A stretch of DNA of 64,000 nucleotides from Candidatus Magasanikiibacteriota bacterium. Its GTDB lineage: Bacteria > Patescibacteriota > Patescibacteriia > Magasanikbacterales > GWA2-37-8. Made by a program: the position numbers and the translations under genes. The notes beneath the pieces were generated by a model that saw only the letters and a list, made by a program, of their open reading frames with translations, searched no databases and was not told the origin of the DNA. The stretch covers positions 12,008-76,007 of the forward strand of contig JBAYNU010000003.1 of NCBI GenBank assembly GCA_041678665.1, given 5' to 3'. This document shows, one piece after another, positions 7,853-42,746 of this stretch (position 1 is its first letter; each line of letters starts with the position of its first letter).

Positions 7853-7936
7853 GCCCAGGTGGCGAAATTGGTAGACGCACTACCTTGAGGTGGTAACGCT
7901 CGTAAGGGCATGGAGGTTCGAGTCCTCTCCTGGGCA
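7853..7936 (+). tRNA. tRNA-Leu (anticodon GAG), type II
   Basis: Hand-folded cloverleaf: acceptor GCCCAGG/CCTGGGC, anticodon loop TTGAGGT, long variable arm, T-loop TTCGAGT; no encoded CCA. Confidence 0.75.
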
Positions 7937-7966
7937 CAAATAGGTATTCTTTTAAATGTCGCTATG

Positions 7967-26650: not shown

Positions 26651-26725
26651 GCGGGTGTCGTATAATGGCTATTATGTGGCCTTCCCAAGGCTAAGACGAG
26701 GGTTCGATTCCCTTCACCCGCTCCA
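26651..26725 (+). tRNA. tRNA-Gly (anticodon CCC) with encoded CCA
   Basis: Acceptor GCGGGTG/CACCCGC, anticodon loop TTCCCAA, T-loop TTCGATT, 3' TCCA. Confidence 0.75.
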
Positions 26726-28336: not shown

Positions 28337-28456
28337 ATTGGTTTATTTTAGATTAATTACAATAATTTTGTTTGACCATTGGGAGGTCATTTGCCCTATT
28401 TTTAGCCCCTTTTATTATATCGTGTTTAACCGTAATCGTAAGCGGCTAAAAAATGG

Positions 28457-28639
28457 CTACGTGTTGGCAACTTGTTGTAGTAATTCATAGTCTTTTTTAA
28501 GCATTGATTTATAGGATATGCGCAAAGCACTAACCAAGGCCTCGCCAAGTTCGATGGCCCTTTCCTCGCCGACATTCAAACCAAATTTGGTTTGAAATAT
28601 TCTGCGGAATTCCTGAATTTTGTCAGAACTTATGCGCAT
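28457..28639 (-). CDS. hypothetical small helical protein (possible regulator/RDF)
   Basis: 60 aa between integrase and replicase; function not supported by motif. Confidence 0.3.
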   Translation of the reverse strand: MRISSDKIQEFRRIFQTKFGLNVGEERAIELGEALVSALRISYKSMLKKDYELLQQVANT

Positions 28640-28677
28640 ACGGTTAATTAATTTCGACCTTTATTTTATATTTTGCT

Positions 28678-30936
28678 TTAATAATTAATTATTTCGTCAT
28701 CGCTAAGAATGCCGACATTTTTGTTTTCGACCTTTATATCCCCAAAATCAACTGGGGAAATTCTTTCAATAATAATTTTTCTCTCCTTGTCTTTTTTGGC
28801 GTAAAATTTCAGACCGGCCTTTTCAAGATTAACAGAAATTATTTTCATCATCCGCAATAGCCGGCTCGGTGTTTGTGGCCATTGCCAATTTTTTTCAATT
28901 TTTATATTCAAATCTAATGCGACAGATTCCATTTCGGACAATAATTCTGACGGCGTATTTTCGATATAATTTGTCCGACCGTCGTTAAACATTTTCAACA
29001 ACACCAATGCGAGCGGACTTTCTTTTATGACCTCATCGTTTTGTTGTTGGAGTTTTTCGGAGTAGGCATCCAAAAATTTTTGTTTTCCGATATTTAATGC
29101 TTCGGCAATGGCGCAACCCCACTCCGCCCAGTCGGCCATCCGCGGTTTTTCTGCAAGCCTTATTTGAGGTTTGATATTAATCGCTTTCACGAGAGTATCA
29201 AAACACGCCCCGAGTATTTTGGGTTTTATGGCATTAAATTGGACTGATAACTCGGATTCTGTTTTTCTTTCCGTTTCAGAGATTCTCTCTAATTCAATAA
29301 GGAGTGAGCGGTCAAGAAGGTCGGGTTTATTTGCCACTACATTGATACCGTTAACGCCGAGGGGAATTTGAATATTATAAATAAAGTCGTCGTCATCCGA
29401 ATATAGAACGCGTTTACTGAATCCTTCTCCTGTGCACGCACGGCAAAATGCGTCACTTAGGTCATTTGACATTTTCGACAAATTATCAAACAGGCAAAGC
29501 CAGTGGTGGGAAGCTATTTGTGTAAATTCGCGGATATTCTCAATCGGGGGCAAGGTTTTGATTGCGGAAGGATCAACCAAACTTTTCATTATTCTGAACA
29601 CCGTGCTTTTGGATGACCCTTGAAGTCCTGATAAAACAATCACAGGATGAGGGAAGCCGCAAATATAGCAGGATAGAAGATAAACCAAAAAAACAATTTG
29701 ATCGTTTTCCTTTTTTAGATTAATGAATTTCAGCAATTCCTCTATATTGCCACCGCGTTCTGGGGCAACTTGCTTTTGTTGATGTCTAAATCGTTTAAAA
29801 AGTATTGGTGGATTCGATACGATTTCCCAACCGGTAGCACTAATTTTTACCGCTTGCTCACCGAGATCAAACCATAAATTATCCTCACAGTGCGCAATGC
29901 GGACATTAAGAAAAATAGGCATTTCTTTTTGGGCTTCCATTCGTAAATGGGCACAGACATTTTCAATCGTATCCTTACCTATCGTTTTGTTGTTGTTCAA
30001 ATAATACTGGCTGAATATCCAATCCTTAAATTCCCTTGAATCAATGGCAATAACTTTTGTGCCGTCGCCGTTAACCGCCGCCCAAGTCGAATTTTTATCA
30101 TCCACAAACACTTTTAACTTTGTTGTTGCCAAGAAATCAATTAATTCAACGGCCTTGCTTTGTCTGCTCTCATCACCGCCTAATTTATCAACGCCGAGTG
30201 GCTGCGGTGATGTTCTCTCTCGTTCGCAAATACTTTCAAAGACAGATCGGAGTTCGTCGTCAGCCAGCGGGGGAGTATTTTTTTGGTTCAATTTTTGTAA
30301 TCTGAACCAGACATCATTCTCCCAAAGCTGTGGAGGAAATCGTTTTAATAATTTTCCAACTATGGAGGCGGCTTGGGTATTTCTTTGGCCTTCTTTCACC
30401 CCATTATTTAATAGGCCACCAAATTCTTTATCTATTTTTCCTTCCGAATCATTACCTTGTAGACTCAAAAGTATCTCTTTGGGCAACTCGGCAATAGGAG
30501 TGGTATCTGGTGAATTTATCCATTCGTATGTTTTTGTAGAATCGATAATTGACGGCGGTGCTACTACACATCTGCCTTCTGCGCGAATATCAATATTCCG
30601 CCATTTCCTGACATCGTTTTTTATTTTTATATTAGGATTTCTGAAATAATAATGACGCCCGTTGTTTCCGGTTTTTGCCGAAACGGTCAACGGTAAATTA
30701 TCTATTCTACCGTTATCGTCGATGTCAATTACGAGTAAATCAGAAATTTGGCCGGTGATAATTATAATATTGGCTTTATTGGAATCAAACCATTGGTGCA
30801 GCTCAATATCTGTCGGTAATTTTGTTTGATACTCTTTCCACGATTTTAACAACGGCTTTTTTTCTCTATCATCACCGGGAACGACAGAAAAACCCATTGC
30901 TACATATTCTTTTGCCACTTCATATTTTGTTTTCAT
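28678..30936 (-). CDS. replication protein: primase-polymerase (prim-pol) N-terminal domain fused to P-loop SF3/D5-like helicase
   Basis: N-terminal bifunctional prim-pol-like region (V-V-P-G-D-D ... I-D-I-D motif) and Walker A G-L-Q-G-S-S-K-S-T at about aa 435. Confidence 0.65.
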   Translation of the reverse strand: MKTKYEVAKEYVAMGFSVVPGDDREKKPLLKSWKEYQTKLPTDIELHQWFDSNKANIIIITGQISDLLVIDIDDNGRIDNLPLTVSAKTGNNGRHYYFRNPNIKIKNDVRKWRNIDIRAEGRCVVAPPSIIDSTKTYEWINSPDTTPIAELPKEILLSLQGNDSEGKIDKEFGGLLNNGVKEGQRNTQAASIVGKLLKRFPPQLWENDVWFRLQKLNQKNTPPLADDELRSVFESICERERTSPQPLGVDKLGGDESRQSKAVELIDFLATTKLKVFVDDKNSTWAAVNGDGTKVIAIDSREFKDWIFSQYYLNNNKTIGKDTIENVCAHLRMEAQKEMPIFLNVRIAHCEDNLWFDLGEQAVKISATGWEIVSNPPILFKRFRHQQKQVAPERGGNIEELLKFINLKKENDQIVFLVYLLSCYICGFPHPVIVLSGLQGSSKSTVFRIMKSLVDPSAIKTLPPIENIREFTQIASHHWLCLFDNLSKMSNDLSDAFCRACTGEGFSKRVLYSDDDDFIYNIQIPLGVNGINVVANKPDLLDRSLLIELERISETERKTESELSVQFNAIKPKILGACFDTLVKAINIKPQIRLAEKPRMADWAEWGCAIAEALNIGKQKFLDAYSEKLQQQNDEVIKESPLALVLLKMFNDGRTNYIENTPSELLSEMESVALDLNIKIEKNWQWPQTPSRLLRMMKIISVNLEKAGLKFYAKKDKERKIIIERISPVDFGDIKVENKNVGILSDDEIINY

Positions 30937-30955
30937 ATTATTTTTTGATTATTTT

Positions 30956-31198
30956 TTATTGGTAGATAAGATTTTTTAATTCTTTGAGTGCGTAGTAAAA
31001 ATTTGTTGGCTCAACACAGACTTGGCGATTGCGGTATTTTTCGATTAAGTCGTTTAGTTTGGCGTCCGCTTCCGTGTAGAATATTGCCCGACCGCCGACC
31101 TTGCGACTAATGTTGATTGACCGTCCCTGTGTATATAGGTAGGCCATTAGGGGTAAGTCAGTTGTCTCAAAGTTTTTGTTTTGTTTCTCAGTATTCAT
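30956..31198 (-). CDS. small hypothetical protein (DUF5659-like pattern)
   Basis: 80 aa; family assignment tentative. Confidence 0.3.
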   Translation of the reverse strand: MNTEKQNKNFETTDLPLMAYLYTQGRSINISRKVGGRAIFYTEADAKLNDLIEKYRNRQVCVEPTNFYYALKELKNLIYQ

Positions 31199-31282
31199 AT
31201 TTGTTAATTTTTATTTTATTTAAGTCTGTAATTAGTGTAATAAAAATTAGACCAACTTATAATTAATCGCGGCTATCTCTTA

Positions 31283-31318
31283 AAAATTAAAAAAACGGCT
31301 TTGTTTAGCCGTTTCTTT
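31283..31318 (-). terminator. hairpin terminator downstream of 31345-32016 gene
   Basis: AAACGGCT-aaacaa-AGCCGTTT followed by T-run on minus strand. Confidence 0.5.
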
Positions 31319-31344
31319 ATGAAGTTACTAACATTGGCCAAAGG

Positions 31345-32016
31345 TTAACCAGAGGTTTCGGTTATATATTCAACATTATAATGTTTATTTATTCTAAAAC
31401 CGCTTGTTCTGCTCTCAACAATAAAATCCTCGGTGTTATCTACTTTTTCTCTAAAATTTTTATTAATTTTCTTAATAGCATTTGATGTAATAATATCTTT
31501 ATTTTTTTCGCTTTTTTGTTTTTGTGTTTTTTTACCGTCCAATTCGTTATATTCTTTGATTTTTTCAATAATGTCTCTAATTCGTAGGGGTTTTGAAGAA
31601 AGAACCAGCGAGCGAACTAGTTGGAATCTATCGCCGCTTACATTATAAATTTTTGTTTCATCGTCTTTTTTATATATACCATTAATATTCGACAATACGA
31701 CGTCGATTATGTCTGGGCTTACTGAGATAAATTGTTTTTTATTATCACCAGTTTCAGTTGACGAATAATAATTTTGAAAATTTTTTCCTTTACCCACCAA
31801 GACATATCTATTCCAATTACTGGGGGCAAAATCGATGACATTAATAATTTTTCTATTATGTAAACTCCGTAAAATTTTGAAGTATAATTTCAGACTAAAT
31901 CCGTCAGGGCAAACATTGTTGGCGTCTAAAATAATTGAATCTTTCCGCTCGGATTCAATGTTTAGTTTTATGTGTTTGATTATATTGTTTTCAACCAAAT
32001 CAATGTCTGTATTCAT
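31345..32016 (-). CDS. hypothetical protein
   Basis: 223 aa, Lys-rich, no motif recognised. Confidence 0.4.
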   Translation of the reverse strand: MNTDIDLVENNIIKHIKLNIESERKDSIILDANNVCPDGFSLKLYFKILRSLHNRKIINVIDFAPSNWNRYVLVGKGKNFQNYYSSTETGDNKKQFISVSPDIIDVVLSNINGIYKKDDETKIYNVSGDRFQLVRSLVLSSKPLRIRDIIEKIKEYNELDGKKTQKQKSEKNKDIITSNAIKKINKNFREKVDNTEDFIVESRTSGFRINKHYNVEYITETSG

Positions 32017-32061
32017 ATTAGTTTCATTTTATATGTATTTTAAGCCATTATCGGCCCGAGG

Positions 32062-32736
32062 TCAACCCTTTGTATCCCCGTATGTGGGGTAATACTTTTC
32101 ACCGTTTTCCATAGTGACCCCGCCGTCCGCGTTTATCATCTCCTGCATTGCTTCGTGTATTTTGTTAAATTGGTCAGGAAATCTTTTCGCAAGTTCCCCC
32201 AAATTGTTTGGATTATCCGGATTGGTCGCGTCTTCATAAGCCCTCAATTGGTCTCCCTGTCCGCCAGCCATTATCTCCTCAATTTTAATAGTGGTTTTGC
32301 TTTTGCTAAGATTCCAACCCTGAATGTCGGCAAAATTTGTTTGCATTCTCTGAAATTTTTCCAAGGCAATCATTTTTTCAAACGGACGCCAATTTTTTGC
32401 CTTATTTTTCTCCGCGATGTGCATAGCCGCTTGCTCAATTACATCTTCCATTTGAGCAATATATACTTCACGCAATCTTTCAAAGTGGTCGCGGCGTTCC
32501 CACTTGTTTGATACCCGATTTTGCCGATAATATTCGGCGATGTCCCTTTCCAATGTTCTGAGGGTAATTTGTCCCCAATGTTTTGCGGAATTTAACCTGT
32601 TAATCTCGGCCAAAATAGATCGCATAGACAGGCCCGCGACTTTAAGGGAAATTTCCATTTCCCTGCGTTCTTCCAGCAAATTCATTGGCACGGGGTTTCT
32701 ACCCGCGTTGGTGGGGGGTAGCGACATTTCCGACAT
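32062..32736 (-). CDS. hypothetical protein
   Basis: 224 aa helical protein; no motif recognised. Confidence 0.4.
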   Translation of the reverse strand: MSEMSLPPTNAGRNPVPMNLLEERREMEISLKVAGLSMRSILAEINRLNSAKHWGQITLRTLERDIAEYYRQNRVSNKWERRDHFERLREVYIAQMEDVIEQAAMHIAEKNKAKNWRPFEKMIALEKFQRMQTNFADIQGWNLSKSKTTIKIEEIMAGGQGDQLRAYEDATNPDNPNNLGELAKRFPDQFNKIHEAMQEMINADGGVTMENGEKYYPTYGDTKG

Positions 32737-32759
32737 AAAATTACTTTATAAAATACATT

Positions 32760-33731
32760 TTAGGTATTGGCTAAAATTTCTTTTTTAATATGTTCGGCCA
32801 GTGCCCTCATAAAAGGCGGCATTACCGCGTTGCCGATTCTGGCCCATTGCTCTTTGTGGGTGCCGAGAAACTGAAAGTCGTCGGGAAAACCGGCCAACCG
32901 TTTCAACTCCTGAATGGTCAAATATCTGTTTTCAACCCAATGAAAAAGGCAAGCGGTTTTTGTAATGGTCGGGCACGGTTTATGCCTTGCTATTCGTTGG
33001 CAATTAAAATATTTACCGTTGTTATACTTTGCGCCGGTTTCACCCTCTCTACATTTCAACAAAACTTTTTTAATGGTAGTTATTCCGGGTATCTCTCTCG
33101 GTTCGGTAATAATTAAATTTTGTAGCGCCTCTTGAACGGTGATTATTTTGCCAGTCGGTTGAGGAAATGAGGGGATAACATTAAAATCTTTTCTGACGCC
33201 AATCCAAATTAACCTGCGGCGCGATTGTGGCACGCCGTAATTGGCGGTGTTCATCAATTGGCATTTAACATTATAATTCAGGGATTTTAGCCCGGTCATT
33301 ATCTCAATAAATCGTCCGCGCATTTTACCCTTAACCATTCCCGAAACATTTTCCATTAAAAAAACTTTGGGCTGTAATCCGTCAACCAATCGCACAAATT
33401 CCTTGAATAAATTATTGCGCGGATCGTTAACCTGTCTTTTGCCGGCAGTAGAAAAACCCTGACAAGGTGGTGAGCCGTCAAAAACATCTAATTCGCCGCG
33501 TTTGATTTGGCAGAATGACAATATCTCGTCGGTGCTAACGGCGGCAATATTCTTTTGCCATACGGGCACATCGGGAAAATTGCTTTTGAATGTTTGAACC
33601 GAGTTAGATTCCCATTCAATCGCCAGTAATTCCTTAAATTCGGCCATTCGGTATCCCAATGAGCTGCCGCCGCACCCGCTGAATGTAGAAATTACCGTCG
33701 GTGCCGTCGTTGTTGTCGGTAATGTGTTCAT
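32760..33731 (-). CDS. DNA (cytosine-5)-methyltransferase
   Basis: Motif I F-S-G-C-G-G, motif IV G-S-P-P-C-Q-G-F-S, motif VI E-N-V; start taken at internal ATG 33731 abutting upstream stop (ORF-track start 33788 would overlap 56 nt). Confidence 0.8.
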   Translation of the reverse strand: MNTLPTTTTAPTVISTFSGCGGSSLGYRMAEFKELLAIEWESNSVQTFKSNFPDVPVWQKNIAAVSTDEILSFCQIKRGELDVFDGSPPCQGFSTAGKRQVNDPRNNLFKEFVRLVDGLQPKVFLMENVSGMVKGKMRGRFIEIMTGLKSLNYNVKCQLMNTANYGVPQSRRRLIWIGVRKDFNVIPSFPQPTGKIITVQEALQNLIITEPREIPGITTIKKVLLKCREGETGAKYNNGKYFNCQRIARHKPCPTITKTACLFHWVENRYLTIQELKRLAGFPDDFQFLGTHKEQWARIGNAVMPPFMRALAEHIKKEILANT

Positions 33732-33732
33732 A

Positions 33733-34395
33733 TTAATTGAACTTGTAGCCGCACTTCGGGCAAGTGTGCTCGGTCTCAATATTTTCACTAAATTCTGGCT
33801 GCTCTAACTGCGACGGATTGGGAATATAGTCATCGGTTAAGACGGTATCGACGACACCGACATTATTTTTTTGTAATGAGCACCTGTCCAAGATATTGGC
33901 CGTTAATAATTGGCGCAAGTTATTGCCATTCTGAATAAAGTCGGTCAAAAATTCCTTGTTAAAACCCGTGCCCTCTAATTTTGCAAGTTCGCTTTCCTTT
34001 TCGGCCAATTCTCTCAATATTAGGCCCAATTTGTCAATTTCCCAGCCGCCGCTGATGTTATTTGCCGCTAAATTAGCCAATTTTTCGCGTTCTGGGGGCC
34101 ATTCTACCTCACGGTATGCAAATCTATTGCCTTTGGCCTCAATGTAGCCACCGGCGAGAGATTTGGAGTCCGTGGCTTGTTCAAATAGGTCCGTTATGAC
34201 GACTTCTGCGTCCGGGGCTATTTCAAGCAACCATTTGACCCTTTGATGGCCGCCGATCAAGTTGCCGGTGGCGCGGTTGAAAATTATGCCGCTTAAATCG
34301 CCCAGATCCGCTAAACTGGTTTTAAGCAAAGAAAAACTGGAATCTGAAATTTGGCGGGGATTCCAATCGGCGAGGTGTAAATCTTTTACTTTCAT
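33733..34395 (-). CDS. ParB-like nuclease (ParBc/sulfiredoxin-fold) domain protein with C-terminal zinc ribbon
   Basis: N-terminal D-L-H-L-A-D-W-N-P-R-Q-I-S ... G-G-H-Q-R ParB N-domain pattern; C-terminal C-P-K-C-G. Confidence 0.55.
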   Translation of the reverse strand: MKVKDLHLADWNPRQISDSSFSLLKTSLADLGDLSGIIFNRATGNLIGGHQRVKWLLEIAPDAEVVITDLFEQATDSKSLAGGYIEAKGNRFAYREVEWPPEREKLANLAANNISGGWEIDKLGLILRELAEKESELAKLEGTGFNKEFLTDFIQNGNNLRQLLTANILDRCSLQKNNVGVVDTVLTDDYIPNPSQLEQPEFSENIETEHTCPKCGYKFN

Positions 34396-34419
34396 AGAAT
34401 TGATAAATTAATAATAAAT

Positions 34420-34896
34420 TTAGTAGTTAGTTAGACACAAATTACCTACCGAAATTTTGTTTTCAAATAATGACCATTCGATCTCGCCCCAATCCTTAAT
34501 TGGTTTATTTAGATCAAGAATAACGACGGCCAATCTTTCTAAATTTTCATCCCAATTAACATATTTGGTTGGAAAGATTGATTTGCCAACGACAGTCGTC
34601 CCTTTCCAATATGTAAAATTTGTTTCAGAATTAGTATTTTCATAGAGGCGATTGCGGGGTATGTTAATTTGTAAATCGCCACCCTCCAACCCGATCCTTT
34701 GTCTGGTCATTTGGTTTGCGTAAGTATTACCGGTTTTTGTGTTTATAATTATGTGGTCATAATCTACAAAATCCGGCAAAACTTTTGTGTAATAAGACCT
34801 TATTTTGTCTCTAACGCGTTTGAGTTGGATATTAACACGGCCAAATTCATTGGCAATTTGTTTATATTCCCGTCTTGTTTGTGCTTCGTTAGGCAT
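34420..34896 (-). CDS. hypothetical protein
   Basis: 158 aa, no motif recognised. Confidence 0.35.
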   Translation of the reverse strand: MPNEAQTRREYKQIANEFGRVNIQLKRVRDKIRSYYTKVLPDFVDYDHIIINTKTGNTYANQMTRQRIGLEGGDLQINIPRNRLYENTNSETNFTYWKGTTVVGKSIFPTKYVNWDENLERLAVVILDLNKPIKDWGEIEWSLFENKISVGNLCLTNY

Positions 34897-35099
34897 ATTG
34901 TGATTAAATACTTAATAAAAAAAGGGTTCGGGCAAAATGTGTAGCCCGCCAAAATGATAATATTCATTTTGGATTGGACTTTACACATCTCGCCTGAACC
35001 CTTTGGGATCAAGCGTGTGTTGTTTGTTTCAACACACGAGAGTGTTTAGTTGTGATTGTATTATAATCTATGGGGCGGGTGAGTGTCAATATGTCGAAA

Positions 35100-36002
35100 T
35101 TAATTATAAGAATTAATGATACCGTCATCGGCACCATAAAAACACATCGGTGTATAACCAGACCAACACCATTGCCACGATCTCCCAGTTCCGTAGTTAG
35201 AAGGATTAGCCGAGCTCGGATTTCCTCGCTCCGATTTTAACATATCCAAACTCATACCAATCCAAATTTCATTATTTGCCAAGCGGTCGCAGGTTGAATG
35301 TCCCCACTCTGGGTGTTTGTTGCATATACGCCCCGCCCTTGAATTATCCCATTCGGCATCCTCTCTACCGATTTTTGCTGATTCTATGTCATCTTTCTGT
35401 TTCTGATTGGTATATTCTTTGTTTGTCATTAACGCGTCGCTCTCTATCCAAGCCACTATTTTCGTGTTGTCTCTATTGGTAGTTTTTATAAGCGATTTGT
35501 TATTGACTGTATCTTCCTCATACACATCCGCTTTAACTCCCGAATCAACAAAATATTCATCGGCATATTCTTTATTTTCGTAATTAGCTAAATCAAATTC
35601 AGAATAAGTATTATCCGGTCCTATCGGATTAATGAATTTATTATTAATGATACTATAAATCACCATTTCTTTTATAGGTTGTTTGCCATTGATGTATTCG
35701 GTAGTAAATTTTATTTTAGAAGCTATATCCGCCTGTCTTTTCGCAATGGATTGCTTTTGAGATTGCTCTTGTTGCGATTGTAGAAATGTAGTTGATATTA
35801 TGCCGATAAACATCATCGTGATCGTTAGCCAAACTAATATGCCAAGTGGTGATTTAAGAGAAAACCACATTTTAAAAGGATTGCTTTTTTCTTTTATTTT
35901 ATTCACCACTGGTTTGGGTGGAATCTGACTTTTACAATGCTTGCAAATAATAGCGTCTGATAAGACTTCTTCGGCGCAGAATGGGCATTTTATGTTTGAC
36001 AT
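35100..36002 (-). CDS. zinc-ribbon/TM-anchored hypothetical protein
   Basis: N-terminal C-P-F-C ... C-K-H-C zinc ribbon, one TM helix, Trp/Cys-rich C-terminal domain. Confidence 0.4.
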   Translation of the reverse strand: MSNIKCPFCAEEVLSDAIICKHCKSQIPPKPVVNKIKEKSNPFKMWFSLKSPLGILVWLTITMMFIGIISTTFLQSQQEQSQKQSIAKRQADIASKIKFTTEYINGKQPIKEMVIYSIINNKFINPIGPDNTYSEFDLANYENKEYADEYFVDSGVKADVYEEDTVNNKSLIKTTNRDNTKIVAWIESDALMTNKEYTNQKQKDDIESAKIGREDAEWDNSRAGRICNKHPEWGHSTCDRLANNEIWIGMSLDMLKSERGNPSSANPSNYGTGRSWQWCWSGYTPMCFYGADDGIINSYN

Positions 36003-36300
36003 AAAAATAAATTAAAAATAAAAATGGACACCCAAGACCTGCGAACTACAAAGGTGTCCCGAGAGACGCCGTTTGTGTTTGGTCTGGGTGCCCATTCCAA
36101 TACACAAACGACAAAGCGGTTAAGCTTTTTGCTTCTCTCGGTAATAATATCTTGTAGTTCGCAGGGTTATTATAGGCCAAACGGGGTAAAAAGTAAATAG
36201 GGGTAAATATAAAATGAATTTTATATTGTTAAAAATGCTAATTATAGGCAAAAATTCAATATTTTTAAATAGGATTGTCAATGTTGTTAACAGTCGGCAG

Positions 36301-36329
36301 TTGACATAGTTTGGGTTATCGGCTATACT
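36301..36329 (+). promoter_or_regulatory. consensus sigma70 promoter with overlapping short inverted repeat
   Basis: TTGACA - 17 nt - TATACT; TGTCA ... GTTAAC ... TGACA arrangement 36276-36306. Confidence 0.55.
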
Positions 36330-36371
36330 GATATAAATAGTTTCATTATTTATATCAAATTCACATAACTT

Positions 36372-36599
36372 ATGTCAGAAATAAAAGAAGAAAACAGATC
36401 AGCTCGCTTTAAGCGAGTTGCGGAACGCAGAACAAAAGCGGTTTTGCGGTCTATTCGAATTTTGGGTAATTGTTCAAATAAAAGCGCCTATCAATACTCG
36501 GACGAAGAAATAGCCAAAATTTTTAAGGCTATTGAAGATCAAATACGTTTAACCAAGGCTCGATTTCAAAAATCGAAAAATATTAAATTTACCCTATAA
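36372..36599 (+). CDS. hypothetical small protein (operon gene 1)
   Basis: 75 aa, basic/helical. Confidence 0.4.
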   Translation: MSEIKEENRSARFKRVAERRTKAVLRSIRILGNCSNKSAYQYSDEEIAKIFKAIEDQIRLTKARFQKSKNIKFTL

Positions 36600-36602
36600 T
36601 TT

Positions 36603-37220
36603 ATGACAAATAATTTAGCAGGCCTGTCGCGAGCAGAAAAAATTATACTTGTGATGTATAAGATGAGTGAGGGGACAAAAAAAAATTTGAAATACGAGGA
36701 CATTGTGGTCGGTGCATTTAAGATGTTTGCCGAAAATTTTCATTTGAGAGGATACTCTGAATATCCCGATTCTGGGGACTTAGTTCATAAACCACTGTAT
36801 GATTTTAGAAAAAAAGGATTAATAGAAGCTAATAATAAAGTTTTTTCCTTAACCGATCGCGGAATATCCTTTGCAGAACAAGTTGAAATACAAGCAAGCG
36901 GGAAACAAGTTGGTTACAGCGGAAGGTTGTCCAGATTCACGGAAAAGGAAGTGGCGCGTATTGAGACGACGGAAGGATTCCAACTTTTCGTTGATGGCAA
37001 AACAGATAAAATTACGGACACCGATTTTTTTAACTACATTGGGGTAACTCCGCGCACATCAAAAAATGATTTCCTCGGGCGTTTTGATACGGTATGTAGT
37101 GCCGTTGAAGAATTAAATAATCAAAAAAATTTACCATTTATTCGCGAAAAAATTGATCCCTACCATAAATTTATGCTTGAAAAATTTCAAAGTATAATAT
37201 CACATTATCAAACTAAATAA
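36603..37220 (+). CDS. hypothetical protein (operon gene 2), possible N-terminal winged helix
   Basis: 205 aa; 3-nt gap from gene 1. Confidence 0.4.
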   Translation: MTNNLAGLSRAEKIILVMYKMSEGTKKNLKYEDIVVGAFKMFAENFHLRGYSEYPDSGDLVHKPLYDFRKKGLIEANNKVFSLTDRGISFAEQVEIQASGKQVGYSGRLSRFTEKEVARIETTEGFQLFVDGKTDKITDTDFFNYIGVTPRTSKNDFLGRFDTVCSAVEELNNQKNLPFIREKIDPYHKFMLEKFQSIISHYQTK

Positions 37221-37232
37221 CTTCCCTTTACT

Positions 37233-39335
37233 ATGAAAATGAATATGAAACAAAAAAATATTACCATTATTGAAGAACCAAACGTGATAGATGACCATTT
37301 ATTAGATATTATCGGCAACGAATTTAAGTTCGACCACGAAAAAGGAATTGCAGAGTGGATAAAAAATTCAAAAGACGCATATACAAGGTCCGACTTGCCG
37401 GATTCAGAACAAAACATAATATTACGCTTTGTAGACGGAAAACAAGACGACGCTGCTTTTGAATGTATTGATTTTGTTGGTATGAGTGATACGGATATTG
37501 ATAAAGCATTTAAGAGATGGGGTGACCCGGAAGCTGCAAAACGTGGTTTGAAAAAGAGAGTATATGGCGGTCACGGAAATGGCGGAAAATTTTATATGCG
37601 CCAGATGTTTGAGAAATCTCATTTTGTAACCTATAAAGACGGCAAGATCAACATTTTTGGTTTTAATGAAAACCGTAAATACGGTTTCGCTGACGGTTTT
37701 AAGAATAAGAAAGCCAACCCCAAAGAAGCATTTTCTATTGCTAATATCGAAGACTTAAATTTTCCCAAGGGAGTCAAAGAACAGATTGTGGAAGGTAAGA
37801 TTGGTTTTACCGTGGTTAGAGGAATCGGTCCGTCAAAAATGAAAAATAATATTAAATTTGATAAGTTGGTTGAAAAATTAAAAAATCATCCGCAGGCGCG
37901 TCGCATATTAATTCGAATTAGTGTATGGGCCAGCCACAATAATTTTTCTGACGCTACACTTCTTAAACCCGACGACATTAAACCGCTTCCAAATTTTGAA
38001 AAGCCGTATTTTGTTGAAATACCGTCGGTTATTGAGATAATTGAAAGCGGAGAGAAAAATTCGGTAGAAATGGCAAATGCAAAATATCAAGTTGGAAATT
38101 TGGTGTTAAAAACTTCCGAAGAGGCATTCGGTAAGGGCAGCCGGGTAGCCGATCTGAACAGGGTTGATATAATAGGTGAGGTAGGAGTTATAGCTTCATA
38201 TCAATTTTTTGAATTGGGGGTGACCGCATTCCCGCAAGCTTCATTTATTTATGGTGAATGTGAGTGTCCGATATTGGAAGATTCTGAAATGGACGCCGTA
38301 AAGAACGATCGCTCAAAACTTGTAGAAAATAATGTGCGTGCGGTTGCTCTCTTGGGTTGGTTGAGGGAGCAAGTTGATAAATACGCAAACTCAATTGCCG
38401 CATTGGAGAAAAAAGAACAAGAGGTTCAACGAAGACAAATATCGGCTGCTTATAATGATTTTTTGAATAAATGGAAAGATAGGTTTATGTCCAAATTTAT
38501 GGGAGATTTATTCAAAAGCGGCGGTGGTGCTGGCGGCGGAAATAACGATGAGGGAGGGGTTAAGAGAAAAATATTAGAATTACCCAAGGATGGTTTTGCT
38601 TTTAGTTATCCCTATGCTGAAATACAAAATAGCCTTGAAGAGAGGATCACGTTAAAAGCGTCCGTCCCTAATCCAATTCCGCTCGGAAGTATTATAAAAA
38701 TAGAGGCGTCTTCAAATAATATCATCGTTAGTGAACAAAAAATTACAATAAAAGCGGAAAATATAAAAACAACGCCGTCCGGAGACACGGTTGCAGTTAT
38801 AAACTTTATTGTTATTGGTAAAAAAGTTGGAGAAGAGGCGCAACTTATCGCTACCGTCGGTAAATTAAGCACCGAAATGACCGTTAAAACCATTGAAGCT
38901 ACGGGGAAAGATAAAGGTAAGAACCCTAAAACTCCGCAAGTTTTGCTCTCGGGAATACACCCGGATCCATTAATGATAAATCCCGGGGAACAATCGGTTA
39001 TATTGTCCGAACGTGATCCGTTAGTTTACCAACGGTATCAGGATGTGCAAGAAGGGATTTATTGGATCAATACGCAAAGTCCTTTGGCCAAGGCGATACT
39101 TGATAGATATACTGATAATTCAATAAGATGGCGGGATTATCTTTTTCAAAGATATGTTGACATTTTTGTCAAACAAATGCTGCACGAATTGCAAAAAAGA
39201 GATTCGGAAAATTTTCGAGCAGATAGGGTCGACAGCGAACTGGATGAATTAACAAGAAAAGTCCATTTTGCGGCCATTAACGACCTCAACCAATTTTTCT
39301 TTGAGGAAGACTTTACGCCGGTCGAAAAATTATGA
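37233..39335 (+). CDS. GHKL-type (histidine kinase/HSP90/MORC-like) ATPase domain protein
   Basis: N-box E-W-I-K-N-S-K-D-A, G1 I-D-F-V-G-M-S, G2 G-G-H-G-N-G-G-K within first 130 aa; 700 aa total; remainder unassigned. Confidence 0.55.
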   Translation: MKMNMKQKNITIIEEPNVIDDHLLDIIGNEFKFDHEKGIAEWIKNSKDAYTRSDLPDSEQNIILRFVDGKQDDAAFECIDFVGMSDTDIDKAFKRWGDPEAAKRGLKKRVYGGHGNGGKFYMRQMFEKSHFVTYKDGKINIFGFNENRKYGFADGFKNKKANPKEAFSIANIEDLNFPKGVKEQIVEGKIGFTVVRGIGPSKMKNNIKFDKLVEKLKNHPQARRILIRISVWASHNNFSDATLLKPDDIKPLPNFEKPYFVEIPSVIEIIESGEKNSVEMANAKYQVGNLVLKTSEEAFGKGSRVADLNRVDIIGEVGVIASYQFFELGVTAFPQASFIYGECECPILEDSEMDAVKNDRSKLVENNVRAVALLGWLREQVDKYANSIAALEKKEQEVQRRQISAAYNDFLNKWKDRFMSKFMGDLFKSGGGAGGGNNDEGGVKRKILELPKDGFAFSYPYAEIQNSLEERITLKASVPNPIPLGSIIKIEASSNNIIVSEQKITIKAENIKTTPSGDTVAVINFIVIGKKVGEEAQLIATVGKLSTEMTVKTIEATGKDKGKNPKTPQVLLSGIHPDPLMINPGEQSVILSERDPLVYQRYQDVQEGIYWINTQSPLAKAILDRYTDNSIRWRDYLFQRYVDIFVKQMLHELQKRDSENFRADRVDSELDELTRKVHFAAINDLNQFFFEEDFTPVEKL

Positions 39336-40423
39336 ATTTTGAAGGAAACATAATAAACATCGTCTGTGAAAATTACGGGGTTAACAAAGAGGCCGTTTTT
39401 GCACAGGACAGGCAACAAAACATTGCGGAAGTCAGGATGGTTCTTGCCTATTGTTTAAGGTTGGTTGAAAATTTATCTTTTCCGGCAATAGGAAAAATTA
39501 TCGGTAATAGGGATCACACCACGATGATGCACTCTTGTAGTAGGATTGCCAAAAAAATTGAACAAGACAAAAAATTTGCCGTCAGAATCAAATTAATTAT
39601 CGATAAGATTTTGGCTAATAGATATAATGAGGTAGCCAAACCAAAAGTTAATCCGATAGAAATTAATATTGGTGAAGATGAAGAAGAGTCAGAACCAGAA
39701 CCAGATTTGAATTATTATGTGGTGCCTTATGAAAATGAAAAGTTAGAATTATCAGATAGAGAAAGGGGTATTTTAATACGATATCGAAACGGCGAAACTC
39801 TGAGAAAAATAGGTCAAACGGAAAAAGTCACGACACAGCGTATTAGCCAAATAATCATCAAAGCGGTTACCAAGGAAGTTAAAGCAAAAATAAGGGAGGG
39901 ATTTGATATTGATATTGAAGAATCTATAAAAGGCGAAAAAATTGCTCATAATTTTAATTTATCTAAAAAAATATCTGACGAAGATGTTAGAAAACTTACC
40001 CCGGAATTTATATTAAGAGTTGGCAGCGGCACCCAAATAAAAGCCTTGGCAAAAGAAGTCGGACTGTCGGTATCAAAATTTAATAAATTCTTCCCCGAAG
40101 TGTTAGAAGAAGCCGATAATAAAAAAAGACGAGAAAAACAACGATGGACAAAATATTATATTAGTTGTAGGGGGTGCGGAACCACCAAAATACCACACGT
40201 AAAAAAAGGGTATTGTGAGCAATGCCTTGGTGTTTTTCGCGGGAAGAGAAGAGATTCGGTATTGAAGAATAAAAATAAATGCGAAGTATGTAGTATTGAA
40301 CGCGGGAAAGCGATACAAAAGTATAAGAAAGATTTCTATATTACTAAGGACGGACGGGTATTGTGTCGCAATTGTTTTTTACAATTAACCGGCGATAAGC
40401 TTGCGTCAAGCAGGTGGAAATAA
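39332..40423 (+). CDS. DnaA C-terminal (domain IV)-like DNA-binding protein with sigma-70 region-4-like HTH and C-terminal zinc ribbons
   Basis: N-terminal matches DnaA domain IV (L-x-x-x-S-F-P-A-I-G-K-I-I-G-N-R-D-H-T-T-M-M-H-S-C-S-R-I); E-T-L-R-K-I-G-Q-T-E-K-V-T-T-Q-R-I-S-Q-I HTH; C-R-G-C-G ... C-E-Q-C ... C-E-V-C ... C-R-N-C; start overlaps upstream stop (ATGA). Confidence 0.55.
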   Translation: MNFEGNIINIVCENYGVNKEAVFAQDRQQNIAEVRMVLAYCLRLVENLSFPAIGKIIGNRDHTTMMHSCSRIAKKIEQDKKFAVRIKLIIDKILANRYNEVAKPKVNPIEINIGEDEEESEPEPDLNYYVVPYENEKLELSDRERGILIRYRNGETLRKIGQTEKVTTQRISQIIIKAVTKEVKAKIREGFDIDIEESIKGEKIAHNFNLSKKISDEDVRKLTPEFILRVGSGTQIKALAKEVGLSVSKFNKFFPEVLEEADNKKRREKQRWTKYYISCRGCGTTKIPHVKKGYCEQCLGVFRGKRRDSVLKNKNKCEVCSIERGKAIQKYKKDFYITKDGRVLCRNCFLQLTGDKLASSRWK

Positions 40424-40434
40424 ATCGAAATAAA

Positions 40435-41394
40435 TTAATGATTTGCCCCTGTTTCAAGTATTTTACGCACTTTCTTAGCGACTGCCGCAGCCACATTTAC
40501 GGTTACGGCATTACCCAATTGCTGATACGCTCTGGTTATAGAAACAGGCCACTTGTATTTTTCAGGAAACCCTTGTAACCGCGCACATTCCTTAACCGTC
40601 ATTCTTCTAATCCCAAATTTATTTTTCTTAACCGGCCTGTCTTTTATTAAGTTCCTTTCACGGCCCATATTCCCCGCTACCAATGTATTAGAGATGCCAC
40701 CAACATCCAAGATTTGACATCCAAATCCGCTGCCTTTTTTCTCGTGCCGTTTTTTGTGTTTAAGTAAACCCTTGTAGTATTTTTGTGACAGATAATAGAA
40801 TTCATCAATGTCTTTTTCTAAGATGTCAGAAAGAGCAACCGGTTTACAATGGGGTTTAGGGAATTCAAAATCTATACTGTGATCCAAAAAACCAACTATA
40901 TATAGCCGTTCTCTGTGCTGCGGAACGCCAAAGTTTTTCGAATCTAATACGGCTTCTTTTACGCGATACCCGGCCCACTCCAAGTTTTGTTTTAGTCGTT
41001 CATATACCTTGCCCTTGTCATAAAGGCGAAGGTGTTTAACATTTTCTAAAACAAAAGCCCGCGGTTGTTTTGCGGCCAAAATTCGGATGATATGAAAAAA
41101 CGCTTTGGCGCGATCATCGTTAAGCCCTTTTCGTTTCCCTATCATTGAAAATGGCTGGCAGGGAAAGCCGCCCAATAAAATATCAAAATCTGGTATAATA
41201 TCGGTATTGATATTCTTTATGTCATTTTGATCAATGTCACCAAAATTAGCCCTGTATGTCTTACAAGCGTTCGGATCCAAGTCGTTTGAGTAAACAACCT
41301 GAAATCCAGCCTTTTCAAATCCCATCCTCATACCCCCGATTCCGGCGAATAGATCAATGACTTTGAATTTGTTTTTTTTGTTATTTTTCCCCAT
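40435..41394 (-). CDS. DNA (cytosine-5)-methyltransferase
   Basis: Motif I F-A-G-I-G-G, motif IV G-F-P-C-Q-P-F-S, motif VI E-N-V-K-H-L. Confidence 0.8.
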   Translation of the reverse strand: MGKNNKKNKFKVIDLFAGIGGMRMGFEKAGFQVVYSNDLDPNACKTYRANFGDIDQNDIKNINTDIIPDFDILLGGFPCQPFSMIGKRKGLNDDRAKAFFHIIRILAAKQPRAFVLENVKHLRLYDKGKVYERLKQNLEWAGYRVKEAVLDSKNFGVPQHRERLYIVGFLDHSIDFEFPKPHCKPVALSDILEKDIDEFYYLSQKYYKGLLKHKKRHEKKGSGFGCQILDVGGISNTLVAGNMGRERNLIKDRPVKKNKFGIRRMTVKECARLQGFPEKYKWPVSITRAYQQLGNAVTVNVAAAVAKKVRKILETGANH

Positions 41395-41442
41395 AAAACC
41401 TGTTGAACAGTTTGATTATATCATAGATTGTAATTTTAGTAT

Positions 41443-42066
41443 ATGCGTAAATTTGGCCTTCACGATAACCTAACGGATAAAGAAAAGCGGCTTATTAGGA
41501 CGCTGAGACGGCAAGTATTGTCTTGGGCTAAGTCCCAAGATGTATTTTATTATTGGCGAAAAAAGCCGACCGCATACTCAATATTAATGGCCGAGTTGCT
41601 ATTACAAAGGACAAGGGCTCAACAAGCGGAAAAGCAGTTTATTATTTATATGAAAAAATATCCAACCTTTTCAAAATTACAAAAGGCAAAGAAAAGTGGT
41701 TTGTCTAAAATATTTCGACCGTTAGGTTTAGAAAAACGAGTAAATACAGTCACTACCCTCGTTAAAGTGATAAATAAAAATTATAACGGCGATATACCCA
41801 AAAAATATGAAGACTTGATGAAACTACCCGGAGTCGGTGATTATATAGCAAATGCCGTAATGATTTTTGCTCTTAATCGCCCCGGGTGGTTGGTAGATGT
41901 AAATATTATAAAGGTGTTTTCGGATTTGTTCGGGTTGAATATTAGCCGTGAGGAGGGTAAAAAATCAAAATTTATTAAAGAATGTTCTAAATATTTTACA
42001 TCGCTCGGCAATCCGCGTAAATCAAATTGGAATTTATTGGATTATGCGATGAAGAATGGGGGATAA
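41443..42066 (+). CDS. HhH-GPD family DNA glycosylase (EndoIII/MutY/Mig-like, short form)
   Basis: L-P-G-V-G-D-Y-I-A-N-A-V helix-hairpin-helix followed by V-D-V-N-I-I-K-V catalytic-Asp region; no C-terminal 4-Cys cluster. Confidence 0.6.
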   Translation: MRKFGLHDNLTDKEKRLIRTLRRQVLSWAKSQDVFYYWRKKPTAYSILMAELLLQRTRAQQAEKQFIIYMKKYPTFSKLQKAKKSGLSKIFRPLGLEKRVNTVTTLVKVINKNYNGDIPKKYEDLMKLPGVGDYIANAVMIFALNRPGWLVDVNIIKVFSDLFGLNISREEGKKSKFIKECSKYFTSLGNPRKSNWNLLDYAMKNGG

Positions 42067-42206
42067 TATTCGTTGGGGTTCTAACCGGTTTTTTCCAACA
42101 GGCCAAATAACCAAATAACAACATAAAAGGCCCGAAATTGATTTTCAGGCCTTTTACCCAAATAACCCCTGCGGGGTCAAACAAATATTATTAACTAAAC
42201 GGTAAA

Positions 42207-42235
42207 TTGACTTTCGGTCAGTTTCGGAATATAGT
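42207..42235 (+). promoter_or_regulatory. sigma70-like promoter upstream of tRNA-Thr
   Basis: TTGACT - 17 nt - TATAGT. Confidence 0.4.
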
Positions 42236-42366
42236 AAACCAAGCCGTTATACTGCTCGATTTCGGTTCTAACGCGCTTCACAAAGCAGCTCATTGTAAGA
42301 GACCCAATTTTGATGAGGATTTTACTAAATTTAGGTTATTTGTTTCTGCCGTAGATTTTAACTAAT

Positions 42367-42439
42367 GCCATCTTAGCTCAGTTGGTAGAGCGGCACATTC
42401 GTAACGTGCAGGTCTCGGGTTCGATCCCCGAAGATGGCT
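42367..42439 (+). tRNA. tRNA-Thr (anticodon CGU)
   Basis: Acceptor GCCATCT/AGATGGC, D-loop AGTTGGTA, anticodon loop TTCGTAA, T-loop TTCGATC. Confidence 0.7.
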
Positions 42440-42504
42440 CAAAGAAATATCGAGGGTAGTAAGCAGGAAAGGGTGGAAACAATTGTTTTCACTTACTGAG
42501 GAAA

Positions 42505-42575
42505 GCTCACGAAAACCCGAAGGTTTTCGTGAGGACCCCGACTTTACGTCGGGACGAGTGAGATCCCCGAAGAAG
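42505..42575. repeat. GC-rich hairpin repeat (copy H)
   Basis: CTCACGAAAACC-cgaa-GGTTTTCGTGAG and CCCGAC-tttac-GTCGGG hairpins. Confidence 0.55.
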
Positions 42576-42746
42576 GTTCAATTTGTTCATCCACAGGAGT
42601 TCTGTTGTTAAGGGTATTTTTATGTTATAATAGAATTGTAAATCTGATACCCTAACGAATCTCGACTATATTCGTATAAATTCGTGTTATAAATTTCCTA
42701 CCTATCGTCTGCCTGTTCAGTAGGCGGGGTAGGCAGGCGTGGTCCT

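What the first reader, a model, noticed from the sequence alone, without database searches (positions are those of the whole stretch)
36372..40423. Candidate undescribed module: GHKL-type ATPase (700 aa) translationally coupled to a DnaA-domain-IV / sigma-70-r4 / multi-zinc-ribbon protein, preceded by two small proteins
A four-gene co-directional operon with 3-nt and overlapping (ATGA) junctions. Gene 3 has clear N, G1 and G2 boxes of the histidine-kinase/HSP90/MORC ATPase fold but no kinase or topoisomerase context. Gene 4 begins with a near-textbook DnaA C-terminal DNA-binding domain (…S-F-P-A-I-G-K-I-I-G-N-R-D-H-T-T-M-M-H-S…), then a sigma-70 region-4-like HTH and four CxxC pairs. MORC-like GHKL ATPases are known to cluster with R-M/defence genes; coupling to a DnaA-box-binding domain is not a described defence or replication-control architecture as far as I can tell. 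It could target DnaA boxes to control host or element replication during satellite induction, or act as an anti-phage system; the two flanking C5-MTases would fit the latter.
Basis: partly seen in the sequence, partly recalled or inferred. Interest (0 to 1): 0.75.

Follow-up and report, generated by a model that had tools for sequence, protein, structure and literature searches.

The report
Methylase-linked MORC-like ATPase module
The four genes are real and belong to a widespread, unnamed cassette that pairs a MORC-like ATPase and DNA-binding partners with a DNA methylase, most likely a restriction-modification-like defence with no recognisable nuclease.

Summary

Across 92 non-redundant related loci, the conserved unit is g1 (small helical), g2 (winged helix plus helical domain), g3 and a DNA methyltransferase.
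- The methylase is usually C5, accompanied by Vsr or, as here, a Mig-type T:G glycosylase.
- A divergent branch uses an N6/N4 methylase instead.
- g4 is a variable accessory. Only its sigma-4-like HTH is constant. DnaA-IV alternates with RNAP alpha-CTD, HARE-HTH and GyrA-CTD modules.

Of the two flanking C5 methylases, only the downstream one (40435-41394) co-evolves with the module. I found no nuclease or helicase. Nothing matches PADLOC. In Pfam and NCBIfam only the DnaA-IV and sigma-4 domains of g4 pass threshold, and no model names the module.

Best reading: a methylation-gated, restriction-modification-like system in which the MORC-like clamp acts on unmarked DNA. Replication control through DnaA boxes is not supported as the general principle.

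Verdict: a new variant of a known kind (paraMORC-type GHKL ATPases in R-M contexts). Interest 0.62.

The parts
36301..36329 (+). Promoter-like site TTGACA-17-TATACT upstream of g1
   Evidence: Matches 11 of 12 consensus positions, the best site in 35800-42500. This is a consensus match only.
36329..36357 (.). Perfect palindrome TGATATAAATA-N7-TATTTATATCA between the -10 box and the g1 start; candidate operator
   Evidence: I3. Similar TAAATA...TATTTA palindromes lie 15-33 nt upstream of g1 in L008, L035 and L049. The region is AT-rich, so this could be chance.
36372..36599 (+). g1: 75-aa small helical protein with conserved motif RF..LA..RT..VL...LGNCSN..Y.Y
   Evidence: Homologues sit next to g3 in 59 loci, including the divergent N6/N4 branch and the Ensifer plasmid. 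No family match.
36603..37220 (+). g2: N-terminal winged helix (aa 10-98) plus C-terminal helical domain (aa 111-204); obligate partner of g3
37233..38267 (+). g3 aa 1-345: GHKL ATPase plus S5/transducer module, MORC-like
38334..38516 (+). g3 aa 368-428: single long helix followed by a disordered Gly-rich linker
   Evidence: AlphaFold secondary structure and pLDDT.
38595..38897 (+). g3 aa 455-555: Ig/PapD-like beta-sandwich insert, absent from the roughly 600-aa short forms
38928..39335 (+). g3 aa 566-700: conserved C-terminal domain of unknown fold class, with S573, D578, Q600, R601, D604, W611-I-N613, R634 and R640
   Evidence: Conserved in all subfamilies. Its profile has no significant PDB sequence match.
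39347..39547 (+). g4 aa 6-72: DnaA domain IV
   Evidence: Pfam 69.6 bits. Residues R27, P51, D61, H62, T63 and H67 align with E. coli DnaA R399, P423, D433, H434, T435 and H439.
39746..39874 (+). g4 aa 139-181: sigma-70 region-4-like HTH, the only domain constant in all partner proteins
   Evidence: Pfam 26.3 bits. Found in 69 partner ORFs.
40166..40375 (+). g4 aa 279-348: two zinc ribbons (four CxxC pairs)
   Evidence: The module occurs in 41 partner ORFs and is often duplicated.
40435..41394 (-). C5 DNA methyltransferase, convergent with g4; the modification component of the module
   Evidence: Pfam DNA_methylase 303 bits. Resembles M.HhaI over its full length. 76%, 75% and 65% identical to the methylases of L007, L008 and L001, the same ranking as g3.
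41443..42066 (+). HhH-GPD T:G mismatch glycosylase (Mig-type), functional analogue of Vsr
   Evidence: Best PDB hit is 1KEA at E=1.4e-20. The same position is occupied in L001. Vsr accompanies the methylase in 42 other loci.

Best explanation
The locus is a self-contained, horizontally mobile, restriction-modification-like module. It comprises g1-g4, the convergent C5 methylase (40435-41394) and a Mig-type T:G glycosylase (41443-42066).

Shown: the gene set, the folds, and the conserved linkage.

Inferred mechanism:
1. The methylase marks resident DNA.
2. The glycosylase, or Vsr elsewhere, repairs the T:G mismatches that 5mC deamination creates.
3. g2 (winged helix) and g4 (an array of DNA-binding domains: DnaA-IV, a sigma-4-like HTH, zinc ribbons) place the complex on DNA.
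4. g3, a MORC-like GHKL-S5 ATPase, dimerises on ATP binding and clamps or compacts DNA that lacks the mark. This blocks its replication or transcription, or it hands the DNA to a nuclease not yet recognised. Candidates are the conserved g3 C-terminal domain or a host enzyme.
5. g1 is a small accessory or regulatory subunit.

In this window the module rides next to, or as cargo of, a serine-recombinase integrative element.
For: 1. Conserved synteny across CPR, Acidobacteriota, Nitrospirota, Verrucomicrobiota, Planctomycetota, Myxococcota and Actinomycetota.
2. Among 50 loci with full flanks, g2 is present in 47 and a DNA methylase within 4.5 kb in 41.
3. Methylase class displacement: the divergent g1-g3-g2 branch sits next to N6/N4 methylases, including in a cultured Ensifer plasmid.
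4. The methylase phylogeny tracks g3.
5. Vsr is present in 42 loci, and a Mig-type glycosylase here and in L001. Both are classic companions of C5 methylases in R-M systems.
6. One methylase-less locus has an SRA (5mC-reading) protein in the methylase position.
7. g3 is structurally MORC-like with an intact ATP site.
8. Neighbours are typical of defence or mobile islands: Shedu, HEPN, Fic, McrB-like AAA_5 and serine recombinases in 22 loci.
9. The partner evolves faster than the ATPase. Nearest homologues are 45-50% identical for g4, against 72-74% for g3 and 63-68% for g2, as expected of a recognition subunit.
10. Precedent: MORC and paraMORC GHKL ATPases are linked to Dcm and Vsr in predicted R-M systems (PMC2292703).
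Against: - Nine of 50 full-flank loci have no adjacent methylase.
- No homologue has experimental data.
- The family is rare in phage collections. That neither supports nor opposes a defence role.
- Which protein reads the methyl mark is unknown.
Confidence: 0.55

Rival explanations
1. Methylation-coupled repair module. g3 acts as a MutL analogue that, with its DNA-binding partners, recruits or stimulates Vsr or the Mig glycosylase at T:G mismatches made by the linked C5 methylase. On this view the cassette is a methylase plus its own damage-control kit, not a restriction system.
For: g3 shares the GHKL+S5 fold with MutL. Vsr or Mig is present in many loci. E. coli MutL is known to stimulate Vsr (established knowledge, also discussed in PMC2292703).
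Against: The branch linked to N6/N4 methylases keeps g1-g3 but has no Vsr or Mig, and it has no deamination problem to solve. Vsr is absent from about half of the full-flank loci. Some loci have no methylase at all. The MutL C-terminal endonuclease/dimerisation domain is absent.
Confidence: 0.12
2. The first reader's replication or transcription control idea. g4 binds DnaA boxes or promoter elements to regulate replication or gene expression of the host or of the integrated element, with g3 as a remodelling motor.
For: DnaA-IV keeps every DnaA-box contact residue. The larger partners carry two alpha-CTDs whose DNA-binding determinants appear conserved by inspection of alignment A3 (compared from memory with E. 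coli alpha-CTD; no residue-level alignment was run) and a sigma-4.2 helix reading TRERVRQI, nearly identical to sigma-70. The window copy lies beside a Prim-Pol / serine-recombinase element.
Against: DnaA_C is present in only 31 of about 74 partners and in none of the divergent branch. The island has no cluster of DnaA boxes. The element's Prim-Pol, ParB-like and other genes are not shared with any other locus, whereas the methylase is. The cassette also occurs outside such elements.
Confidence: 0.1
3. Guard or decoy sensor. The partner protein displays copies of host domains that phage early proteins attack: sigma region 4, RNAP alpha-CTD, the delta-like HARE-HTH, DnaA-IV and GyrA-CTD. Binding or modification of a decoy by a phage factor triggers the GHKL ATPase.
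For: Every accessory domain comes from the core transcription or replication machinery. The architecture is highly variable and evolves fast.
Against: DNA-contact residues of the DnaA-IV domain are retained. The sigma-4 and alpha-CTD DNA determinants also look retained by inspection of alignment A3. HARE-HTH repeats and zinc ribbons are ordinary DNA binders. This idea does not explain the methylase linkage. The N6/N4 branch works without any such partner.
Confidence: 0.08
4. Addiction or stabilisation module of mobile elements. It would act by post-segregational killing, like some R-M systems, with no primary anti-phage role.
For: Serine recombinases lie within 8 kb in 22 loci. One copy is on a conjugative plasmid and some are in prophage-like contigs.
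Against: This is not mechanistically distinct from the R-M-like model. Many copies sit in long chromosomal contigs with no mobility genes nearby.
Confidence: 0.08

Closest known systems
Prokaryotic MORC / paraMORC1-5 GHKL-S5 ATPases of predicted R-M systems (Iyer, Abhiman & Aravind 2008, PMC2292703)
   Same: An N-terminal GHKL domain with all ATP motifs, followed by an S5/transducer domain and a family-specific C-terminal extension. Linked to Dcm-type methylases and Vsr. Patchy, horizontally transferred distribution.
   Different: - No SF-II helicase and no RE-fold, HNH, TIR or HKD nuclease in the operon.
- The MORC-specific S5 motif is absent in all 86 homologues.
- The window's g3 has no ExxxH motif (paraMORC2), SduA_C/RE domain (paraMORC3), TIR (paraMORC4) or HxH motif (paraMORC5).
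- There is an obligate winged-helix partner (g2) and a small protein (g1).
- The partner is built from sigma-4, alpha-CTD, DnaA-IV and HARE-HTH domains.
- HATPase_c_3 scores below the Pfam threshold.
Eukaryotic MORC2, MORC3 and SMCHD1
   Different: 11-16% sequence identity. No CW, coiled-coil insertion or hinge domains. g3 has its own Ig-like insert and C-terminal domain. The context is bacterial.
Classical C5 R-M cassettes with Vsr or Mig (for example Dcm-Vsr, and M.MthTI with Mig.MthI, PDB 1KEA)
   Same: An M.HhaI-like C5 methylase with a dedicated T:G repair enzyme beside it.
   Different: The 'restriction' side is a four-protein ATPase and DNA-binding set with no recognisable endonuclease.
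BREX and other methylation-based defences without an evident nuclease
   Same: A methylase plus ATPase plus DNA-binding accessory proteins. Self/non-self marking with an unclear effector step. An RNAP alpha-CTD-like domain has been noted in PglW (PMC12839542).
   Different: No homologues of PglZ, BrxC, BrxL or PglX (PADLOC negative). The ATPase class differs (GHKL, not AAA+/Lon), and the methylase is usually C5 rather than N6.
DnaA (domain IV) and sigma-70 (region 4)
   Same: g4 aa 6-72 is a genuine DnaA-IV domain with the box-contact residues. aa 139-181 is a sigma-r4-type HTH.
   Different: g4 has no DnaA AAA+ domain and no sigma regions 2 or 3. The domains are used as modules in a different protein.

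Membership tests
GHKL ATPase superfamily | Bergerat-fold motifs I-IV (ExxxN; DxxG; GxxGxG; T/GT) | tested here: met
   E41/N45, D80/G83, G112-K119 and T193 are conserved in at least 95% of 86 homologues. Structural match to GHKL domains. Pfam HATPase_c_3 is below threshold (17.8 bits against 25; hits in 21 of 44 members).
MORC family sensu stricto | GHKL followed by an S5-fold transducer domain | tested here: met
MORC family sensu stricto | MORC-specific GhXhhpXXRhl motif in the S5 domain (PMC2292703) | tested here: not met
   A regular-expression search found the motif in none of 86 homologues.
paraMORC2-5 | Family signatures: ExxxH in S5 (pM2); C-terminal RE-fold/DUF4263 nuclease (pM3); TIR (pM4); HxH C-terminal domain (pM5). 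Association with SF-II helicases. | tested here: not met
   The window's g3 has no ExxxH or HxH motif. No SduA_C, TIR or nuclease Pfam hit. No helicase family among recurrent neighbours. paraMORC1 could not be tested because no reference sequences were at hand.
Restriction-modification system | A cognate DNA methyltransferase genetically linked to the restriction genes | tested here: met
   Present in 41 of 50 full-flank loci. The methylase co-evolves with g3, and C5 is displaced by N6/N4 in one branch.
Restriction-modification system | An endonuclease | tested here: not met
   No nuclease domain in g1-g4 or in recurrent neighbours other than the repair enzyme Vsr. A novel nuclease in the g3 C-terminal domain cannot be excluded.
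Restriction-modification system | Restriction of unmodified incoming DNA | not testable with these tools
   Needs plaque and transformation assays.
Named anti-phage systems in PADLOC-DB v2 (including Mza, BREX, DISARM, Shedu) | Match of any component to a system HMM | tested here: not met
   No hit for g1, g3 or g4 at E<=1. g2 has only a 13-bit winged-helix hit.
DnaA | C-terminal domain IV with DnaA-box contact residues | tested here: met
   Pfam 69.6 bits. R399, P423, D433, H434, T435 and H439 all align with identical residues.
DnaA | AAA+ domain III and N-terminal domains I and II | tested here: not met
   TIGR00362 matches only model positions 350-437 (74 bits against a cut-off of 344).
Sigma-70 family | Region 2 plus region 4 | tested here: not met
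   Only region 4 is found. The whole-protein sigma models are far below their cut-offs.

The most novel reading that the evidence does not exclude
A nuclease-free, methylation-gated silencing system. The partner protein uses DNA-reading heads borrowed from the host's own sigma-70 (region 4.2), RNAP alpha-CTD and DnaA (domain IV) to home in on the promoters and origins that any invader must carry. The MORC-like ATPase then clamps and compacts DNA that lacks the cassette's methyl mark. This would be a bacterial counterpart, and possibly a forerunner, of eukaryotic MORC- and DNA-methylation-linked transposon silencing. It even has an SRA reader in some loci.
Probability: 0.15. Interest if true: 0.9.

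Novelty: new variant of a known kind. Interest (0 to 1): 0.62.

Why it matters
If it is a defence system, it adds a widespread family that no current annotation or defence-finder library names. The family has 516 clusters at 50% identity and spans CPR to Actinomycetota, with one copy on a plasmid of a cultured Ensifer.

It would also be one of the few candidate immune systems abundant in CPR bacteria, whose defence repertoire is poorly known.

Mechanistically, it pairs a MORC-like clamp with DNA methylation, and with no nuclease or helicase. That makes it a tractable bacterial model for how MORC ATPases read epigenetic state.

The partner protein recycles promoter- and origin-recognition domains. 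This is an unusual targeting logic that can be tested directly.

Tried and rejected
- PADLOC, NCBIfam, PHROGs and Pfam gave no system-level or family-level name.
- A weak NCBIfam hit to BbrUII/HgiDII restriction enzymes (14.9 bits against a cut-off of 550) was judged noise, as was a weak GreA/GreB C-terminal hit (20.4 bits, 8 of 44 members).
- A profile of the g3 C-terminal domain against PDB sequences gave nothing below E=0.75.
- Zinc ribbons as an HNH nuclease: rejected by inspection, because no His/Asn catalytic pattern lies between the CxxC pairs.
- DnaA-box mapping found only three one-mismatch sites in the island and no cluster.
- Dnd-type systems with cytosine methylases (PMC10853773) use ABC ATPases and are unrelated.
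- TCS-like HEF_HK / paraMORC elements: no Pfam hit.
- A conserved structured RNA upstream of g1: the window's 130-nt hairpin has no sequence counterpart in other loci, and the strong folds there are ordinary terminators or coding sequence.
- Att repeats for the tRNA-Gly element were not found.
- The AFDB fold library was unavailable.
- Literature searches for this architecture returned nothing specific. The HARE-HTH paper (PMC3272235) is not held, so prior mention there cannot be excluded.


Full report
**Observation.**
- g1 runs 36372-36599 (75 aa), g2 36603-37220 (205 aa), g3 37233-39335 (700 aa) and g4 39332-40423 (363 aa).
- g1 and g2 are separated by 3 nt, g2 and g3 by 12 nt, and g3 and g4 overlap in ATGA.
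- A near-consensus promoter, TTGACA-17-TATACT, sits at 36301-36329.
- It is followed by a perfect 11-nt-arm palindrome at 36329-36357.
- The source is a Candidatus Magasanikbacteria (CPR) genome. P0001 is 100% identical to g3 and P0121 to g4.

**The proteins.**
- *g4.* It scores Bac_DnaA_C at 69.6 bits (gathering cut-off 31.5) and Sigma70_r4 at 26.3 bits (cut-off 24.1). It has four CxxC pairs. Aligned with the E. coli DnaA domain IV crystal sequence 1J1V, g4 R27, P51, D61, H62, T63 and H67 coincide with R399, P423, D433, H434, T435 and H439. These are the DnaA-box contact residues; their roles are from established knowledge.
- *g1.* It is a small protein with a conserved LGNCSN..Y.Y motif, probably a helical hairpin judging from the sequence pattern; no structure prediction was run.
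- No enzymatic fold other than the ATPase was found in any of the four.

**Comparative genomics.**
- g3 has at least 800 close homologues and 516 clusters at 50% identity.
- A scan of GTDB species representatives returned 186 loci, of which 80 were kept. They come from many CPR lineages and from Acidobacteriota, Nitrospirota, Verrucomicrobiota, Planctomycetota, Myxococcota, Elusimicrobiota and Actinomycetota.
- Profile searches of all ORFs in 96 loci show that g2 is adjacent to g3 in 90 loci, g1 in 59, and a sigma-4-containing partner in 68.
- Among the 50 non-redundant loci with full flanks, 41 carry a DNA methylase within 4.5 kb: 38 C5 and 6 N6/N4, with some loci carrying both.
- The methylase is placed in one of three ways: convergent after g4, as here; co-directional right after g3; or divergent upstream of g1. 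Each arrangement is typical of one clade.
- Vsr is the most recurrent additional neighbour (42 loci). In the window and in L001 its place is taken by an HhH-GPD protein. The best solved relative of that protein is the T:G mismatch glycosylase Mig.MthI (1KEA, E=1.4e-20).
- A divergent branch has g3 of 750-830 aa and the gene order g1-g3-g2. Its g2 homology is confirmed by hhalign at probability 99.7. This branch is followed by N6/N4 methylases instead.
- One member of that branch lies on a conjugative plasmid of cultured Ensifer adhaerens, where all three genes are annotated as hypothetical.
- Linkage to a methylase whatever its chemistry is the strongest argument for a modification-dependent function.

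**The partner protein is modular.** Only the sigma-4-like HTH is constant (69 ORFs).
- DnaA-IV occurs in 31 partners, mostly of Parcubacteria type.
- The four-CxxC module occurs in 41 and is often duplicated.
- Other partners carry two RNAP alpha-CTD domains, HARE-HTH, GyrA C-terminal blades and HhH motifs.
- In Verrucomicrobiota and Acidobacteriota the partner is 800-1000 aa and sits upstream of g2. It consists of two alpha-CTDs, a sigma-4.2 helix reading TLEEVG..F..TRERVRQI, and about five HARE-HTH-like repeats, with no enzymatic domain.
- The partner diverges faster than g3 or g2. Nearest homologues are 45-50% identical for g4, against 72-74% for g3 and 63-68% for g2.

**Context in the window.**
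- tRNA-Gly (26651-26725) is followed by a large serine recombinase, a Prim-Pol, unknown genes, a second C5 methylase and a ParB-like gene. This looks like an integrative element.
- None of those genes except the recombinase recurs near other copies of the module. The upstream methylase is at most 40% identical to any module methylase.
- The downstream methylase is 76%, 75% and 65% identical to those of L007, L008 and L001. That ranking mirrors g3.
- Serine recombinases lie within 8 kb in 22 loci, so the cassette often travels with them.
- DnaA-box-like 9-mers do not cluster in the island.

**Interpretation.** The data fit a restriction-modification-like module best.
- The methylase marks self DNA.
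- Vsr or Mig limits the mutagenic cost of 5mC.
- g2 and g4 bind DNA.
- The MORC-like ATPase acts on unmarked DNA.

The effector step is unknown because no nuclease or helicase is present. It could be clamping and compaction, which would silence the DNA. It could also be a cryptic nuclease in the g3 C-terminal domain, or recruitment of a host enzyme.

Points against this reading are the nine full-flank loci with no adjacent methylase and the lack of any experiment. Neighbours in those loci include an SRA protein, HEPN, Fic and Shedu.

The rival explanations are a MutL-like repair helper, a replication or transcription regulator, a decoy sensor, and an addiction module. Each accounts for fewer of the observations. 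Their evidence is set out in the rival-explanations section of this report.

**Comparison with known systems.** GHKL-S5 ATPases linked to Dcm and Vsr in predicted R-M systems were described in 2008 as MORC and paraMORC1-5 (PMC2292703). One of them, paraMORC3/VcSduA, is now an experimentally shown Shedu-type defence (PMC12137116). This family shares that theme but fails the specific signatures.
- The MORC S5 motif is absent in all 86 homologues.
- The window's g3 has no ExxxH or HxH motif.
- No TIR or DUF4263 domain was found, and there is no helicase partner.
- Nothing matches PADLOC.
- Literature searches found no description of a GHKL/wHTH/sigma-4-alpha-CTD-DnaA-IV/methylase cassette. The library is incomplete, however, and the HARE-HTH paper is not held.

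I therefore class the locus as a new variant of a known kind.

**Verdict.** Interest is 0.62. The most novel reading still open is a methylation-gated, promoter- and origin-homing MORC silencing system without a nuclease. I give it a probability of about 0.15, and it would be of high interest if true.

Noticed in passing
window 36023-36165: A roughly 130-nt nested, near-perfect hairpin lies in the divergent intergenic region between the 300-aa gene and the g1 promoter. MFE is -67 kcal/mol, with z=-8.2 on the + strand and -8.9 on the - strand. It has no Rfam match, no second copy in the window and no sequence homologue in the 96 related loci.
   Followed up: partly
window 36329-36357; L008, L035 and L049 upstream of g1: A perfect palindrome, TGATATAAATA-N7-TATTTATATCA, sits directly after the -10 box. 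Similar TAAATA...TATTTA palindromes lie at a similar distance from g1 in three other lineages. This could be an autoregulatory operator, like the C-box of R-M systems, or AT-rich chance.
   Followed up: partly
window 26651-36002: An integrative element appears to lie beside tRNA-Gly. It carries a large serine recombinase (26714-28336), a Prim-Pol/PriCT protein (28678-30936), a second C5 methylase (32760-33788) overlapping a ParB-like gene (33733-34395), and unknown genes. No att repeat was found.
   Followed up: partly
window 42416-42442 and 42555-42581: The 3' end of tRNA-Thr(cgt) has an 81%-identical partial copy 139 nt downstream. This may be the scar of an earlier integration. In L027 the module is flanked by two tRNA-Thr genes, one of them also cgt.
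   Followed up: no
L031 11478-11936: In a Staskawiczbacteria locus that lacks the methylase, a stand-alone SRA (5mC-binding) domain protein (Pfam 133.6 bits) directly follows the g4 homologue.
   Followed up: partly
L097 (NZ_CP118613.1 59223-62548): A cultured Ensifer adhaerens strain carries the g1-g3-g2 triad on a conjugative plasmid, with an N6/N4 methylase 3.7 kb upstream. All three genes are annotated as hypothetical. This is a ready experimental handle.
   Followed up: yes
L081 7953-9812: A g3 homologue stands alone between a GlmU-like gene (NTP_transferase + hexapeptide repeats) and a GlmS-like gene (GATase + SIS), with no g1, g2, partner or methylase. It may be a decayed or domesticated copy.
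   Followed up: no
window 7853-7937: ARAGORN reports a tRNA with an undetermined two-base anticodon ('tg'). Rfam scores it as a tRNA at 49 bits. It may be an unusual or intron-containing tRNA.
   Followed up: no
window, whole: TTATCCACA with up to one mismatch occurs 33 times against 18.8 expected (no shuffle of 100 reached 33). Perfect copies are at 9498, 10462, 46158, 58820 and 62358. None clusters near the module.
   Followed up: no
window 35100-36002 (-): A 300-aa protein with an N-terminal zinc ribbon matches several PHROG families of unknown function (best E=2e-9). It is transcribed divergently from g1 and is not shared with other loci.
   Followed up: no
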